DNA of 64,000 nt from the human T2T-CHM13v2.0 reference genome, Homo sapiens, in assembly GCF_009914755.1 (NCBI RefSeq), contig NC_060933.1; one strand, given 5' to 3'. Shown here piece by piece: positions 690 to 64,000 of this stretch. Numbering within the stretch: position 1 is the first letter of the stretch; every line of letters begins with the position of its first letter. The notes beneath the pieces are model-generated. The model was not told the DNA's origin. It saw only the letters and a list, made by a program, of their open reading frames with translations, and searched no databases. A program made the position numbers and the translations under genes.

Positions 690-780
690 CTTTTCAAGGA
701 ATCTTTGGAGGTGCCTCTTCAATTTGCTACACAAAAAATTTCTTAACAAGATAATTATTAGTTTGAATGCAGACTGAATT
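690..780 (-). pseudogene. Candidate pseudo-exon H (91 nt): (K)IQSAFKLIIILLRNFLCSKLKRHLQRFLEK
   Basis: Acceptor tgtctgtattttaaacaag and donor AAG|gtagct. Open in phase 2, as exon G requires. Confidence 0.3.
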
Positions 781-1829
781 CTTGTTTAAAATACAGACAG
801 GACAGAACCCTATTTATAACTATAACAAGGACTATAAAACATATAGAAGAAGATAATCAAACGTCCATGTCTCTGGAGTGGAGTTGTACCATGACAGAAT
901 TTCCAAGTCAGATTTGAGCCCAGATCCCCCATCCAGGGTTACTATACCACTTAAGAGAATTTTGAATTAATTTCAGTCTTATATTTTTAAGGAATATCGT
1001 ATTTTAATAGGTATTAAATATTATATTTTCCCATTTAGCTCAAGAGACCTTAGAGCTGAAAATAACCCTGAGTTCGTTTAGGGCCCAGTAGGGCCCTAAA
1101 ATTTATTTCAATACTAAAAAGACAGCTATGTAGATTCTCTATCATTTTAACCTGTCTTACCACAACTTCTAAGGTTGGTCTATTGACAGAGCCTAGCATG
1201 TTTTGGTGTTAAATAAATAATAGTTCCAAGGAAGATTGTTAAGCTTAATATTAAAAAGGATCTCATATAACTTTAAAATACCTACAATTCAGTAAGATAA
1301 AAATAAAGAAGAGAGAAAATAGAAATAAAGAGGGGAAAATGGGTAAAAAAATAAAATAAGGCCACAAGTTAGGTTAGTTTACCAAATAAAAATTATAACA
1401 TCTTATGTGCTATTAAGATGTTTAATTTCACAAATTTGAGTCTGGATTCCCTAGTGGCCAAGGCAAAGAAAAAAGTAGAATCCTACTTTCCATTAAGTAA
1501 TATCAAACAAGTAACTCAGAAGAATAACAAATATCCCTAGGTCTGAGTTTTCTGAGAAATTTATTTTATGGGTCCTCATAAACAAGACAATTTAAAATGT
1601 AGTTATAAAGAAGTTTCTGCCTTAAAGTTTCATAATCTGTGATATTTGAAGCAAACAAATGAAGTGCTAAAGAAGCCAAAAATAGAGTTCTTATGGGGAT
1701 ACTCCTTGGAGACCCATCTAGTTGCCCACGAGGTAAGTCCTCAAAAGACATCCATATAAAAAAGCAAGAAGTTTGTTTTTCGTAAGATGTCTCAAAACAG
1801 GGCAACGATAAAAACAATCACCAGCAATT

Positions 1830-1942
1830 CAGTTAACCTCTGTGGGCCTCAGTATCATCACTTGAAAAAGGGAAATATAAACAGGTGGAATAGGCTAGAT
1901 CATCCCTAAGGGTCCTTCTAGAACTAAAAAAGTGTGATTCTT
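1830..1942 (+). mobile_element. MIR-family SINE fragment
   Basis: ttaacctctgtgggcctcagt core and a ctagatcatccctaagggtccttctag tail. Confidence 0.6.
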
Positions 1943-2082
1943 AATTAAACTTTTACTAATCCCCTACTATGTGCTATGTTTCTCCGAATAAAAAAGATTT
2001 CTAAACCCATACATACACACATATGTCCCTTTGAGTGTTTCATAATTTCGCTATTTTGTAGAGTAGAATTGCTGCTACTTGC

Positions 2083-2285
2083 TTGTTATTACAGCAAGAA
2101 AGAATCCAATATTTGCACACCAATTGATCCATGAATGTCAACAGAGAGCACACAGCCTCTGCCCTCCTAAATTGTTCATCTGTGAACTTGGGTGAAAGTT
2201 GAAAACTCTTATCGAATATTCAAATCTCTTTTTGACAGCTTCTGTCTGACCGAAATTTTCAAACTAAATTGTATGGGTGCATATG
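2083..2285 (-). pseudogene. Pseudo-exon G (203 nt): HMHPYNLV*KFRSDRSCQKEI*IFDKSFQLSPKFTDEQFRRAEAVCSLLTFMDQLVCKYWILSCCNN
   Basis: Acceptor gttccttgtttag, phase 0. Both stops are TGA (CGA decay would give Arg). Donor gcaagt (GC or mutated GT). The 3' boundary is less certain. Confidence 0.6.
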
Positions 2286-2596
2286 CTAAACAAGGAACTT
2301 AACACCCTTCTGTTTTAAACAGTCATTGTATCTAAAATCTCAGGAACATTTCCCACCATTACAAATCCTTAACTGAAGGCACAAGTATTATGTTGGGCTT
2401 CTGAAACCTCAGGAACAAAATTAGGCAGAGCAGACAGAGCCCCCAGCAACTGGATGAGAGTGATAGACGTGAAGCTAACAAAAATTAACCATCTTAGTAT
2501 AAATTATAAAAGGTGATAGTAGAATCTTCAGAGCACTTTACAATATGACTATGCTCTGTACCTCCCAGGAGCCACAAACATGTAACATATACCAAA

Positions 2597-2672
2597 TGTA
2601 TGTGTGTGCGTGTGTATATGTGTGTGTGTGTGTGTATATATATATGTGTATATATATATATATATATATATA
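2597..2672. repeat. (TG)n(TA)n microsatellite
   Basis: Seen directly. Confidence 0.95.
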
Positions 2673-3038
2673 AATATGTACATCTCATAATATTTTTGGA
2701 GAAAATATTGGTAAACCCGGATTAGAACATTTTGCAATCACATTCTTTCCACCTCAGAAAGAACAATTATGTAACAGAAAGCATTTTCAGATCATTTTTA
2801 CAGTAGCAGGAGCCTGATATTTTTAGAGTGCTTTAGGTAAGTTCTCTTGGTGACAAAAATACTATGCACAGTGCTGCTAATGACATGACTCTCTAAAGAC
2901 ACAAACAACTCTTGGTAAATTTCCAAACAAACGAAAGCACATCATTTCTGCAATAAATCTTGTGGCTACATTTCTGAGAAGGTCGGCGCATATTAAAATT
3001 GTGCAAAAATTACTTTGAATCTATATGTAAAATAGTGT

Positions 3039-60965: not shown

Positions 60966-62258
60966 CTTGGAAGGAGAGCAAAGCGAAGAAATGGAGAAAA
61001 GTTGAGTACTGAATTGATATCACTGTGCAGAGTTGCTAGATGAAGCACAAACAGATTTTCAGATAAGCAAGCCATACATTTTTCTGTTGTCCCACTAGTT
61101 TGAATAGCACTTCTATCACTTGCAATCAAAATAATACCAATAAATGCAATGACATTGGACATCTCACTACTTTCTCAACAAAATCCATACAACCTTCCTC
61201 TGTGACTATGCTCATGCTGTTTCTACCAACTGGTATTCCTTTTCTCACCTGTTGAACTCCTAGCCATCCTTCAAACACCCCCTCACTATGATCTGCAAAA
61301 TGAAACCTTTACTGACTCCACCAAGACAATCACTTCTCCCTCTCTTGCTCCCCAGGCACTTTATTTGCACTTCTCTTACAGAACTTCATCCTCTGGAGTA
61401 GGCATCTCTTCTTCCCTTGGTACAGTATCTTACACATGGTAGACCTTCAATACGTAATCAATTTTACCACACTGTATACACTGGAATGCTAACTAATTTC
61501 TCAGAAGATTGCCAATGTTGAAATGTTTAAATGTTTAAAATGTTAATATTATGTGACAAAACAAAAGAATGGTCAAACCTCGGCCTTTCCTCTCCACATT
61601 TACTAGATGAACACACCGTATAGACATTTCCTAGGACCTCCTATAGCTGGTCATTCTGAATATCATTTTGGGGGCAGTAGAATATAACTACCCTAAAAAT
61701 ATGAAATAAGAAGTTGAAAATCCTTCACTTTTCATATTAAGCACATAGATTTTATTTTGCAGATATCCTCTGTTAATTGCACTAAAAAAGGCATGTCCCT
61801 CCACCTCATAAATCTTATAAAAAATATTATAAGCATATTTTAATAATTTGTACCTTCTATCGTTTCAGCCATTTCTCAAAATAGCTTTGAAATGTTATAT
61901 TTTACTATTGTTCATAACAAATCATGTAACCTAGTTCAAAAAACAAGGAAAGTGAATTCAAATAAGAATATTTTTTCGTTAAGATCTAGCAAAGTGTTTT
62001 ATATTCCTAATCTGGGTTTATTCTATGAAAGAAAAAGGAATTAATCTTTGTTTTTAATCTACACAGCATTCAAACTGGAAAGGCAAATTTCTATTTTCTA
62101 ATGCTGGGTTATTAAAATGTATTTCAGATGACAGGCATAAAATACTTATTTCCATACAAACGACAAGACAGCAAAATGAATAGAATCATCATGCTCATGG
62201 AAAATGCCAGCACCTCAGAGAGAGGGAGATCCAATCAGAAAAATGCTGTAGCTTTTAC

Positions 62259-62312
62259 CTTTCAGAATAACGATTTACTAAGATTACTTTTAACCAGCTA
62301 ATGGCTTTTGGT
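62259..62312 (-). pseudogene. Pseudo-exon B (54 nt, apparent 1-nt deletion): DQKPLAG/LKVILVNRYSE(R)
   Basis: Acceptor ttgttgtattttgtcag and donor AAG|gtaaaa. Phase 1 in and phase 2 out fit the neighbouring exons if one base was lost at GGT-TTA. Confidence 0.55.
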
Positions 62313-62895
62313 CTGACAAAATACAACAAATATTGGCATAGCATCTTACAGTATACGCTATATGCTGATAATTATCCCCATTTGGTGTTTATGGAAAATG
62401 AAGCCTAGAGGTCTTAATAACAGCGAGTACGTGATGAAGCCAGAGGCCCGGAGGCCTGTGTCTCATCCCCAGTGGCCACGTGACAGGTTATACAAGTGCC
62501 AACAAATTGCTGCTCATGAGACTTTTTTGCCCAGCTCTCATTTCATACCATAGTTGCCTTCAGGCTTCCAGAAGCTGTTCACCTCCAGAGCTGCCTCTTT
62601 GGCCCAGCCTTCTCCTTGGGGATGGGCGCTCCCCTCACCTTCCATGGCTGCCTTACTCCTGCTCCCATCTCTCCACTGTTGCGTCTTCCCGTCTAGGCCG
62701 GTCCCTTCAGACCTGCCTTTCCCTCCTGGAGATATGACACCTGACTCTGATTCAGATAGTCTAGGACCCTGGAAAGGTAAAGAGGAGTTTCCCTCTTCTG
62801 AAAAGAGACCCCTGATCTTGCTCCGCACATGGAAATAGCAGAAATATGTCTCCAGTACACTGGCCCCATGCTCTGGTTTACGGGACGGGTCATTA

Positions 62896-62982
62896 CTCCA
62901 AGAGAGTCTATCACGGACATTCTGCTCCAAGAGAGTCTATCACGGACATTCTGCTCCAAGAGAGGCTATCACAGACATCCTG
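62896..62982. repeat. 29-bp tandem triplication CTCCAAGAGAGTCTATCACGGACATTCTG
   Basis: Two identical copies (62896-62953) plus a third with 3 mismatches. Confidence 0.97.
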
Positions 62983-63345
62983 GAATGGGAAGGATGCCTT
63001 CACACCGGTTGTGAAAAAGTCACTGGAAGTGGGATAAATTGAAGGCAGGGGCTTTTCCTTTTGCTCTCGAGTTATTTCCTTGGGTCTCCGCTCAGGGTGT
63101 CTGCACTAATCTTCAGTCCATCCCAGGTGGTGGCAACTGGTGAAACCAAGTGCTGCCCTGCATATACCATGTGCATCTGCAGTGGGTTCATCGAAGTTAC
63201 CAGAGCCTGAATGTATGTGAAAGGCCACATTCTCCAGGGGGCCCTCTAACATATTCAGCAAGAGGGTGGCAACTTGAGGGGCCCGATAACTTTCAGGATG
63301 TACTAGATCAAACTGCCTCAGAGTTATCTCAGGAGGGCTGCTTTT

Positions 63346-63648
63346 TTTTTTTTTTTTTTTTTTTGAGACGGAGTCTTGCTCTGTAGCCCAGGGTGGTGGA
63401 GCGCAGTGGCGCAATCTCAGCTCACTGCAACCTCTGCCTCTCAGCTTCAAGCAATTCTCCTGTCTCAGCCTCCCAGGTAGCTAGGATTACAGGCATGTGC
63501 CCCCACACTCGGCTAATTTTTATATTTTTAGTAGAGATGGGATTTCGCCATGTTGGCAAGGCTGGTCTTGAACTTCTGACCTCATGATCCACCCGTCTCC
63601 GCCTCCCAAAGTGTTGGGATTATAGGCATGAACCACCGCGCCTGGCCA
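63346..63648 (-). mobile_element. AluS inserted into pseudo-exon A
   Basis: Full dimer with poly(T); TSD AGGGCTGCTTTT at 63334-63345 and 63649-63660; lacks AluY diagnostics. Confidence 0.93.
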
Positions 63649-64000
63649 AGGGCTGCTTTTAACAGAACTCTGCACACAACTGTTCTGACCGCCTCTTGGT
63701 ACACTCCCCATCAGTCTCTCCTTCTGTTCTTGTAGTGGCATGTCTCCATTCATTTTTATTGTTAATATCAATCTGGGGGGACCTTAAAGCAAACGCTGTA
63801 TTGTCTGATTCCTTTCTCCATCCATTGGAGCTGTCGCTGTCGCAGGGGGCTGTACGTTGACCTTCAGGCAGCCTCTGGATGGGGTCGTCACCTCTGCAGT
63901 TGTCAACCGGCCATCCTGCTATGGCACCCTTGGGCGTCCCTGCAGGCTGTACTCTGAACTCTGCCCTGACATCCTCTCCCAGGGGCGTGTCTCCAGGACA

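What the first reader, a model, noticed from the sequence alone, without database searches (positions are those of the whole stretch)
690..64000. Window-spanning unprocessed pseudogene on the minus strand: a fossil of an uncharacterised F-box-containing gene
Seen: up to 16 segments with AG/GT(GC) boundaries whose codon phases chain. A(1)-B(1/2)-C(2/1)-D(1/2)-E(2/0) gives ...EGNYDQKPLAGLKVILVNRYSERWQKPSYLSYCIWPQAIFHRYPLIKLTPDIESLYVQNPGLWVYDPLREGRCSGVLGLIFGAKSAGGHVQTGSLNAALFPWHISQTRVMRFCEFVMASRRCTH..., followed by an F-box exon, an LRR-like exon and exon G. Lesions include an exonic Alu, frameshifts and many stops, a large share of them TGA. Established: retained introns indicate a non-retrocopied gene, and CGA>TGA is the commonest decay route. 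Inference: this is a gene lost in the primate lineage that should be intact in other vertebrates. I do not recognise it as a named human F-box gene.
Basis: partly seen in the sequence, partly recalled or inferred. Interest (0 to 1): 0.9.

Follow-up and report, generated by a model that had tools for sequence, protein, structure and literature searches.

The report
Dead F-box/LRR gene on chromosome 9

Summary
On the minus strand there is a real F-box exon (window 44145-44265; Pfam F-box-like 45 bits, no stop in a 71-codon open frame). A real cysteine-type LRR exon lies 39.4 kb downstream (4526-4695; one in-frame TAG). Four further LRR exons lie outside the window towards RASEF (chr9:95245465-95271842).

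All five LRR exons align in order, without gaps, to one armadillo protein: nr "F-box/LRR-repeat protein fbxl-1-like", 313 aa. Identity is 59-69% by tool; by my count about 177 of 256 codons match. Each exon carries one in-frame stop. The best human paralogue (FBXL14) reaches only 33%. Exon ends have AG/GT (two GC) boundaries, and split codons give the armadillo residues.

It is therefore an unprocessed pseudogene of an FBXL2-like gene, with no working human copy found. RefSeq does not annotate it.

Not supported:
- Upstream exons A-E. D overlaps the 7SK pseudogene, B joins two frames, and about 12,600 equally good AG..GT/GC open segments exist in that 19.7 kb.
- Exon G.
- The claim that the gene spans the window.
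- Loss in primates specifically, which I could not test.

Assigning the F-box exon to the LRR exons is an inference.

The parts
44145..44265 (-). F-box exon. An alternative acceptor would extend it to 44294. It sits inside a stop-free open frame at 44119-44331, ends in phase 1, and is followed by the donor GTAAGC at 44144-44139. It has no in-frame ATG, so at least one 5' exon remains unidentified.
   Evidence: Pfam F-box-like 45.0 bits and F-box 32.1 bits. Genome-wide six-frame scan 44.9 and 31.6 bits, over the cut-offs. PDB best match is the SKP2 F-box, E 1.9e-6. DNA read.
4696..44144 (-). Inferred intron of 39,449 nt between the F-box exon and LRR exon a. It holds L1 remnants (about 24-34 kb) and other repeats.
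   Evidence: No match to the armadillo protein among the 14 best tblastn rows I read, except the weak one at 7355-7438. Matches to SKP2, FBXL7 and FBXL14 are at background level. L1 ORF1 domains were found among the open stretches. AT skew is -0.26 to -0.29 at 24-32 kb.
4526..4695 (-). LRR exon a, 170 nt, cysteine-type (FBXL) leucine-rich repeats. The acceptor is a pyrimidine tract plus AG at 4697-4696. The exon starts in phase 1, so the T left by the F-box exon plus GG makes the tryptophan that closes an F-box. The 3' end, set by the armadillo alignment, is followed by GC (4525-4524), not GT.
   Evidence: BLASTP to the armadillo protein P0005: 30 of 47 identical, E 3e-18. tblastn gives 60% over 63 aa, E 1.5e-18. 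Genome search with P0005 gives 59%, E 2.5e-16. Local phmmer with human FBXL7 gives 16.0 bits against a plus-strand maximum of 5.2. PDB best match is FBXL17, E 0.046. DNA read.
4547..4549 (-). In-frame TAG stop inside LRR exon a. The armadillo protein has glutamine at this position.
7372..7446 (-). Unconfirmed LRR-like segment inside the large intron. It has a good AG acceptor at 7448-7447 and phase 1. It is absent from the armadillo protein model. It may be a lost or skipped exon, or chance.
   Evidence: A local LRR profile built from 24 repeat units of human FBXL7, 14, 15 and 16 gives 10.4 bits. 0 of 20 shuffled 194-kb strands reach that score, and the plus-strand maximum is 2.5. Against this, there are no PDB matches at E up to 10, and tblastn to P0005 gives only E 2.0 against a different repeat.
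1..4525 (-). Start of the next intron. It runs out of the window to exon b at chr9:95271842, which is 22.2 kb beyond the low end of the window.
   Evidence: No match to P0005 below 4508 in the window among the 14 best tblastn rows I read. Exon b was found at chr9:95271688-95271842.

Best explanation
The window holds the 5' part of a unitary (unprocessed, parentless) pseudogene of an FBXL-type gene. Such genes encode an F-box followed by cysteine-containing leucine-rich repeats, and the product serves as the substrate receptor of an SKP1-CUL1-F-box ubiquitin ligase.

The relic runs on the minus strand from at least chr9:95338265 (the F-box exon) to at least chr9:95245465. That is about 93 kb, in the otherwise gene-free interval between FRMD3 and RASEF. 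Two exons lie in the window (F-box, LRR exon a) and four lie beyond its low end.

The gene is dead in the human reference because each of the five LRR exons has one in-frame stop. Its living counterpart is the armadillo gene that nr calls 'F-box/LRR-repeat protein fbxl-1-like'. The nearest solved structure to that protein is FBXL2.

Shown: the F-box, the LRR exons, their order, their splice boundaries, the stops, and the absence of a close human paralogue.

Inferred: that the F-box exon belongs to the same gene as the LRR exons, the gene's former function, and when it was lost.
For: F-box exon:
- Pfam 45 bits, over the cut-off, in a stop-free 71-aa frame.

LRR exons and the armadillo protein:
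- P0005 was found with a profile of human FBXL7's last exon plus nine pieces of this locus. It was 1 of 42 proteins with E <= 0.001 among 587 scored candidates.
- Searched back against the whole human genome, P0005 gave 18 matches at E <= 1. The best 5 are all at this locus, on one strand and in protein order: residues 36-99, 91-143, 144-216, 207-251 and 218-291. They are 49-69% identical with E from 1.8e-19 to 2.4e-9.
- The next matches are FBXL14 (33%), FBXL16 (25%), FBXL7 (29-38%) and AMN1 (31%).
- tblastn aligns all five exons without a gap, with exactly one stop in each.

Splice structure:
- Acceptors are AG for exons a-e. Donors are GT for the F-box exon and exons c, d and e, and GC for a and b.
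- The split codons at b/c and d/e encode the residues the armadillo protein has there.

No close human copy:
- Searching the F-box piece, exon a and exon c pieces against the human genome found only themselves plus hits at E >= 0.028.

FBXL character:
- The exon c piece matches FBXL2 in the PDB, E 8.2e-6.
- P0005 matches FBXL2 at E 6.8e-34, then FBXL17 and FBXL5.
- P0005 scores 48.8 bits on Pfam LRR_6.

F-box to exon a link:
- Same strand and same phase. The junction codon T|GG makes the tryptophan expected at the end of an F-box.
- No other gene is annotated between RASEF and FRMD3 except RN7SKP242.
Against: - The armadillo model has no F-box, and its first 35 and last 24 residues match nothing convincing here. 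No other species therefore shows the F-box exon and the LRR exons in one protein.
- I selected exon a partly by asking for AG followed by GG, so the restored tryptophan is not fully independent evidence.
- Pfam itself calls no LRR in 7 of 8 human pieces. In the eighth it gives only 15.5 bits (LRR_6, cut-off 23.4).
- Two of the six donors are GC.
- The start-codon exon and the true 3' end were not found.
- Only one counterpart protein was seen. Its chromosomal position, and whether it is expressed, are unknown.
- Matches in closed regions of the reference are not shown, so an intact copy hidden there cannot be formally excluded.
Confidence: 0.85

Rival explanations
1. One reading: a gene of about 16 exons fills the window, and A-E are its true 5' coding exons.
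For: The F-box exon has no in-frame ATG, so some upstream exon must once have existed. The quoted pieces are present as open segments for A, C, D and E.
Against: - Piece B needs two frames joined.
- 73 of the 174 bases of D are 7SK pseudogene.
- About 12,600 equally bounded open segments exist on that strand in 19.7 kb, with similar numbers on the other strand and in shuffles.
- There are no Pfam hits for the open stretches holding A, C and D, which were among the 150 longest scanned.
- There is no match to the armadillo protein or to human FBXL proteins upstream of 44331.
- The gene's 3' half is outside the window.
Confidence: 0.04
2. It is a duplicated or processed pseudogene of an existing human FBXL gene such as FBXL7, FBXL2, FBXL14 or SKP2.
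For: The F-box resembles SKP2 and FBXO11 at 44-46% identity. The LRR exons give weak hits to FBXL7, FBXL14 and FBXL2.
Against: - No human locus matches better than 46% (F-box) or 38% (LRR). The armadillo protein matches at 59-69%.
- Exons are spread over about 93 kb with splice boundaries, so it is not a retrocopy.
- SKP2's intron falls at a different place in its F-box. Of 9 SKP2 exons, only the F-box exon matches the 194-kb region.
Confidence: 0.02
3. The locus still does something: an unannotated transcript or a short F-box-only product uses the intact F-box exon.
For: The F-box exon is undamaged: 71 open codons, a Pfam score in the range of working genes, and intact AG and GT sites. Every LRR exon, by contrast, has a stop.
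Against: - The exon has no start codon, and no 5' exon was identified.
- There is no CpG island in the window. The best 400-nt windows hold at most 12 CpG, observed/expected at most 0.52.
- RefSeq lists no transcript here.
- With one stop per 40 to 63 codons elsewhere in the gene, a 40-codon exon without a stop is not unusual.
Confidence: 0.05
4. There is nothing there: the F-box and LRR matches are chance.
For: Short exons, and weak Pfam or PDB scores for single LRR pieces.
Against: - The genome-wide E-value for the F-box is 3.7e-8.
- Five collinear matches to one protein have E from 1.8e-19 to 2.4e-9.
- Plus-strand and shuffle controls stay far lower.
Confidence: 0.01

Closest known systems
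Armadillo 'F-box/LRR-repeat protein fbxl-1-like' (nr, Dasypus novemcinctus, 313 aa; P0005)
   Same: It aligns to all five human LRR exons in order and without gaps, 59-69% identical by tool. The split codons agree at two exon junctions. It is the best candidate for the living counterpart.
   Different: The model has no F-box, and its termini differ. It has no stops, whereas the human copy has five. Its genomic position is unknown to me. The name is an automatic one; that it comes from similarity to a nematode protein is my recollection, not a tool result.
FBXL2 / FBXL20 and FBXL17 (human SCF substrate receptors with solved structures)
   Same: The architecture is the same: an F-box followed directly by cysteine-type LRRs. 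FBXL2 is the nearest solved structure to P0005 (E 6.8e-34) and to the human exon c piece (E 8.2e-6). FBXL17 is the nearest to exon a.
   Different: Only about 30% identical (FBXL2 locus 30%). In the six-frame scan the FBXL2 and FBXL20 F-boxes match only profile positions 9-29 in one exon, whereas this locus matches positions 1-40, so the exon structure differs. It is a separate family member, not a copy.
FBXL7 and FBXL14 (closest human paralogues by local search)
   Same: Among the four human FBXL genes I compared, these are the best matches to the LRR exons. FBXL7 gives 21.5, 16.0 and 11.4 bits, and FBXL14 gives 14.4 bits. Against P0005, FBXL14 is 33% and FBXL7 29-38% identical.
   Different: Identity is far below that of the armadillo protein. 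FBXL7 and FBXL14 carry the F-box and LRRs in large exons, while this gene is cut into exons of 117-190 nt.
FBXL21P (human unitary pseudogene of an FBXL gene, chr5)
   Same: It is the same kind of event: an FBXL family member that works in other mammals and is dead in humans. Passages of PMC7555810 describe Fbxl21 in this way.
   Different: FBXL21P is annotated and transcribed and has a close working paralogue, FBXL3. The chr9 locus is unannotated in RefSeq and has no close paralogue.
SKP2 (FBXL1)
   Same: Its F-box is the best PDB match to this F-box: E 1.9e-6, 20 of 43 identical by my count of the alignment.
   Different: The intron position in the F-box differs. None of the other 8 SKP2 exons matches the 194-kb region above background.

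Membership tests
F-box proteins (SCF substrate receptors) | An F-box domain scoring over the curated Pfam cut-off | tested here: met
   PF12937 45.0 bits (cut-off 24.3) and PF00646 32.1 bits (cut-off 20.5) for window 44119-44331 minus. The genome-wide scan gives the same result.
F-box proteins (SCF substrate receptors) | Binds SKP1 and assembles into an SCF ligase | not testable with these tools
   This needs a protein. The human gene is broken, and the armadillo model lacks the F-box.
FBXL subfamily (F-box plus cysteine-type leucine-rich repeats) | LRRs of the cysteine-containing type downstream of the F-box in the same gene | tested here: met
   Five LRR exons lie downstream on the same strand and match an FBXL-type protein. 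P0005 scores 48.8 bits on LRR_6 and is nearest to FBXL2 in the PDB. The exon c piece matches FBXL2 at E 8.2e-6. Caveats: Pfam on the human pieces alone gave 0 families for 7 of 8 pieces and a sub-threshold LRR_6 for 1, and that all exons belong to one gene is inferred.
Unitary (unprocessed, parentless) pseudogene | Disabling mutations in the reading frame | tested here: met
   5 in-frame stops in 5 exons (TAG, TGA, TAA, TAA, TGA) at positions where the armadillo protein has Q, R, R, K and R.
Unitary (unprocessed, parentless) pseudogene | Introns retained (not a retrocopy) | tested here: met
   Exons are spread over about 93 kb. AG acceptors and GT or GC donors sit exactly where the alignment to P0005 breaks. 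Split codons are restored at two junctions.
Unitary (unprocessed, parentless) pseudogene | No working paralogue of close similarity in the same genome | tested here: met
   Searches of the human genome with the F-box piece, exon a, the exon c piece and P0005 found no other locus above 46% identity. Closed regions of the reference are not shown.
Unitary (unprocessed, parentless) pseudogene | An intact counterpart at the matching chromosomal position in another species | tested here: inconclusive
   A stop-free armadillo protein exists. It is a partial automatic model, and its genomic neighbours could not be looked up with these tools.
Processed pseudogene | Intronless copy of an mRNA, usually with a poly-A tract | tested here: not met
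   The exons are separated by 0.5-39 kb of non-matching sequence with splice signals.

The most novel reading that the evidence does not exclude
Placental mammals ancestrally had one more FBXL-family ubiquitin-ligase receptor than the named human set. It is an FBXL2-like gene between FRMD3 and RASEF that still codes for protein in armadillo. Humans carry only its unannotated wreck, so humans would be natural knock-outs of a substrate receptor whose targets nobody has studied. A bolder variant is that the undamaged F-box exon is still used in some transcript.
Probability: 0.55. Interest if true: 0.5.

Novelty: new member of a known kind. Interest (0 to 1): 0.4.

Why it matters
Unitary pseudogenes record functions lost on the human lineage. 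F-box proteins choose which proteins a cell destroys.

If this locus is missing from the catalogues, the human F-box family has one more dead member than is listed. RefSeq lacks it, and three full-text searches found no paper on it. A working version in other mammals could then be studied to learn what was given up.

It also shows that an interval treated as a gene desert next to FRMD3 and RASEF once held a gene. That matters when conserved blocks or association signals there are interpreted. It remains an ordinary kind of object, with no new mechanism.

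Tried and rejected
SKP2 as parent. I fetched the SKP2 locus, recognised its 9 coding exons in printed translations, and ran them against 4335 minus-strand and 4362 plus-strand open pieces of a 194-kb region. Only the F-box exon matched (E 7.6e-5). The next best were 0.054 on the minus strand and 0.018 on the plus strand. 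An earlier all-against-all blast was swamped by Alu and other repeats.

FBXO10/11 type. A genome scan with Pfam Beta_helix gave 17 matches, none near this locus.

Pfam on open stretches. I scanned the 150 longest of 629 minus-strand open stretches of at least 30 aa. Only the F-box, two L1 ORF1 domains and two weak DUF hits (E 5.4e-4 and 3.6e-3, taken as chance) appeared. I did not scan the other 479.

A strict LRR regular expression found 1 minus-strand and 2 plus-strand hits, none real. A 5-unit seed profile was overfitted and found only its own members.

A looser weighted motif and human FBXL7 and FBXL14 as local queries did find the exons. Three of the FBXL14/15/16 hits turned out to be Alu translations. 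I first thought candidates at window -4034 and -67086 were LRR exons. The armadillo protein did not confirm them, so I dropped them. I had also taken part of the open stretch before exon c for an LRR, but it is intron.

Protein word searches with single pieces (the 71-aa F-box and the 92-aa exon c piece) were blank.

The two Atlas searches gave only generic F-box and FBXL-type clusters.

A genome scan with PF25372 gave one irrelevant match. It did not ring even at known FBXL genes, so it says nothing.

Papers. 'unitary pseudogene' plus 'F-box' gave 5 papers. 'RASEF' plus 'FRMD3' plus 'F-box' gave 0. A five-term FBXL and gene-loss search gave 52, of which 15 were listed. 'fbxl-1-like' gave 0. 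I read passages only of PMC7555810 (it names Fbxl21, nothing on this locus) and PMC3984280 (it screened annotated pseudogenes only). All other papers were seen as search listings only.

Dating. I made only a rough estimate, described in the full report. No other genome was available.

Full report
Where the window lies. The window is chr9:95294001-95358000 of T2T-CHM13. It sits in the 180-kb interval between RASEF (95129181-95212707, minus) and FRMD3 (95392782-95735519, minus). The only RefSeq gene in that interval is RN7SKP242. The window is 38.5% G+C and has no CpG island: the richest 400-nt windows hold at most 12 CpG. About 12% is masked as repeat in stretches of 100 bases or more.

Checking the quoted peptide. 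Two were found and one was not. I then read all open stretches above 56.9 kb.
- Piece A ends in the open stretch 62541-62936.
- Piece B is made from two overlapping frames (62293-62388 and 62258-62371), which is why one motif was missing. It is a frameshift 'repair', not a reading of the sequence.
- Piece C lies in 60899-61174.
- Piece D is 56582-56755.
- Piece E is 53745-53843.

Rfam places a full-length 7SK match at 56683-56971 on the minus strand (45.8 bits). So 73 of D's 174 bases are a 7SK RNA pseudogene.

As a control for the chaining of AG/GT(GC) segments, I counted open segments of 36-300 nt bounded by AG and GT or GC on the minus strand of 44332-64000. There are 6822 and 5807. The plus strand has 5333 and 5397, and three shuffles gave 4137-4716 and 3307-3417. 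With that many candidates, a chain of five with matching phases is certain by chance.

The F-box exon is real. Six-frame scans of the whole human genome with the two Pfam F-box families list chr9:95338146-95338265 (minus) at 44.9 bits (E 3.7e-8) and 31.6 bits. Both are over the cut-offs, fall within the range of annotated F-box genes, and have no stop in a 71-codon frame. Pfam on the translated frame gives 45.0 and 32.1 bits.

In the PDB the best seven of 16 matches are the SKP2 F-box (best E 1.9e-6). The DNA shows two possible AG acceptors (exon start 44265 or 44294) and a GTAAGC donor after 44145. The exon ends one base into a codon. There is no in-frame ATG. Searched against the human genome, the piece finds itself, then FBXO11 (46% over 39 aa, E 0.028) and SKP2 (44%, E 2.8). 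It therefore has no close paralogue.

Finding the rest of the gene. Several searches failed:
- SKP2's other exons.
- A beta-helix scan for an FBXO10/11-like partner.
- Pfam on the 150 longest minus-strand open stretches.
- Word searches with single pieces.

Two things worked. The first was to ask, downstream of the F-box exon, for an acceptor that would complete the tryptophan codon (T plus GG) and open a frame. This gave 10 candidates in 134 kb, one of which (window 4695) reads as cysteine-type LRRs. The second was a weighted LRR motif over a 194-kb region that I assembled from the flanks. It found further units on the same strand at chr9:95.245-95.251 Mb.

Human FBXL7 as a local query gave 21.5, 16.0, 12.2 (the F-box) and 11.4 bits on the minus strand, against a maximum of 5.2 on the plus strand. 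The 92-aa piece of exon c matches FBXL2 in the PDB at E 8.2e-6.

The living counterpart. A profile search used human FBXL7's last exon plus nine pieces of this locus (alignment A2). It returned 42 proteins at E <= 0.001 among 587 scored candidates; 4976 sample-only candidates were left out by the tool. By their source names nearly all are FBXL7-like.

One is different. P0005 is nr 'F-box/LRR-repeat protein fbxl-1-like' of the nine-banded armadillo, 313 aa, only 29% identical to FBXL7. I fetched 3 of the 42.

Searched back against the whole human genome, P0005 gives 18 matches at E <= 1. The top five are all at this locus, on the minus strand, in protein order:

| P0005 residues | Human place (chr9) | Identity | In-frame stop |
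|---|---|---|---|
| 36-99 | 95298505-95298696 | 59% | TAG |
| 91-143 | 95271690-95271848 | 68% | TGA |
| 144-216 | 95250768-95250986 | 63% | TAA |
| 207-251 | 95246034-95246168 | 69% | one inside the exon |
| 218-291 | 95245458-95245679 | 49% over a stretch that runs into intron | one inside the exon |

E-values run from 1.8e-19 to 2.4e-9. The next matches are FBXL14 (33%), FBXL16, FBXL7, AMN1, FBXL9P, FBXL2, FBXL17, FBXL22 and FBXL13.

A local tblastn aligns each exon without a gap. It shows exactly one in-frame stop per exon, at positions where the armadillo has Q, R, R, K and R. Counting from those alignments, about 177 of 256 codons are identical. That figure is my own count.

Exon boundaries. 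Reading the DNA at the points where the alignment breaks gives the following model:

| Exon | Place | Length | Boundaries |
|---|---|---|---|
| a | window 4526-4695 | 170 nt | AG ... GC |
| b | chr9:95271688-95271842 | 155 nt | AG ... GC |
| c | chr9:95250795-95250984 | 190 nt | AG ... GT |
| d | chr9:95246038-95246165 | 128 nt | AG ... GT |
| e | chr9:95245465-95245581 | 117 nt | AG ... GT |

The codon split between b and c (AG|T) and the one between d and e (AG|G) encode the residues that P0005 has at those points. This is the signature of an unprocessed gene, not a retrocopy. The second TAG I had first counted in exon a lies beyond the exon end and is intronic.

What it is. P0005 carries Pfam LRR_6 (48.8 bits) and is closest to FBXL2 among solved structures (E 6.8e-34), then FBXL17 and FBXL5. 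The human locus is therefore the dead copy of a separate FBXL-family member.

From established knowledge of the family, such proteins bind SKP1 through the F-box and present substrates to the CUL1-RBX1 ligase through the LRR arc. That function is inferred for the ancestral gene and is not shown here. In the human reference the gene cannot make that protein, because the first LRR exon already stops at window 4547-4549.

The weak link. No protein I could see contains both this F-box and these LRRs. The armadillo model starts with 35 unrelated residues and has no F-box.

The link rests on four points:
- The same strand and order.
- The absence of any other gene in the interval.
- The matching phase.
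- The junction codon.

At the junction, T|GG makes the tryptophan that normally closes an F-box. The residues that follow in the armadillo protein continue the usual pattern. That this is the usual pattern is partly my recollection, supported by the HMMER alignments.

Because I selected exon a partly on GG, this is supportive but not decisive. An LRR-like segment at 7372-7446 scores 10.4 bits on a profile built from 24 units of four human FBXL genes. 0 of 20 shuffled strands reach that score, and 1 of 20 reaches the next real score of 7.9. It has no PDB match and is absent from P0005. It may be a lost exon, or chance.

When was it lost? This is inference only. The data are five stops, no indel, and about 31% amino-acid difference over 256 codons. 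With remembered figures for the share of substitutions that create stops, the ratio of indels to substitutions in pseudogenes, and the neutral rate on the human lineage, these suggest roughly 0.06-0.15 substitutions per site of neutral decay. That corresponds to tens of millions of years, with wide error.

This fits a loss in early primates or before. It does not single out primates. My recollection that mouse has no gene between Rasef and Frmd3 would push the loss earlier, or imply a second loss, but I could not test it.

Is it known? RefSeq (RS_2025_08) has nothing at any of the six exons. Three of four full-text searches aimed at it found nothing relevant. The fourth led to a survey of F-box genes in Euarchontoglires that, in the passages I read, screened only annotated pseudogenes. 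I could not consult GENCODE, Ensembl or any supplementary table. 'Unannotated' therefore holds for RefSeq and for the text I searched, and no further.

Verdict. The exon list, the quoted peptide and the extent of the gene were wrong. The object is an ordinary kind (a unitary pseudogene), but it looks like a new example and concerns a family of wide interest.

Noticed in passing
window 56683-56971 (-): A full-length 7SK RNA pseudogene (RN7SKP242; Rfam 7SK 45.8 bits, model positions 1-331).
   Followed up: yes
window about 24000-34000 (-): L1 remnants on the minus strand inside the large intron. The AT skew is strongly negative (-0.26 to -0.29), and open stretches match the L1 ORF1 domains (Pfam Transposase_22 at E 1.2e-6, Tnp_22_dsRBD at E 2.1e-5). 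I only identified the element and did not analyse it further.
   Followed up: partly
window 44748-45122 (-) and 10881-11358 (+); SKP2 locus L004 about 1077-1439: An interspersed repeat lies 0.4-0.8 kb upstream of this F-box exon. A copy of the same repeat lies 0.5-0.9 kb upstream of SKP2's F-box exon (up to 84% identical in translation), and a third copy is in the window on the other strand. I take the similar placement as coincidence. The repeat family was not identified.
   Followed up: partly
window 31324-31632, 58216-58614, 59008-59324, 63333-63653: Alu-like elements (masked stretches with typical Alu translations). Several of them, and others in the flanks, gave false LRR hits with human FBXL queries.
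   Followed up: partly
window 2497-2737 and about 25100: Dinucleotide-type microsatellites, seen as alternating two-residue runs in translation. 2593-2710 is masked.
   Followed up: no
window 1-330 (-): A pyrimidine-rich, low-complexity tract that gives a 108-aa open frame of phenylalanine, leucine and serine repeats. It continues a masked repeat that starts before the window.
   Followed up: no
chr9:95244538-95244606 and 95243781-95243837 (-), outside the window: Two weak matches (43% over 23 aa and 47% over 19 aa, E 1.1 each) to the last 24 residues of the armadillo protein, 0.9 and 1.6 kb downstream of exon e. Two similar copies suggest that the armadillo C-terminus may come from a repeat, or that this is chance. 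The true 3' end of the gene remains open.
   Followed up: no
chr9:95226822-95226986 (-), outside the window: An open stretch that reads like a last cysteine-type LRR followed by two stops, with a good acceptor. It is not in the armadillo model, and FBXL queries score it only 3.4-4.7 bits. It could be the old terminal exon, or chance.
   Followed up: partly
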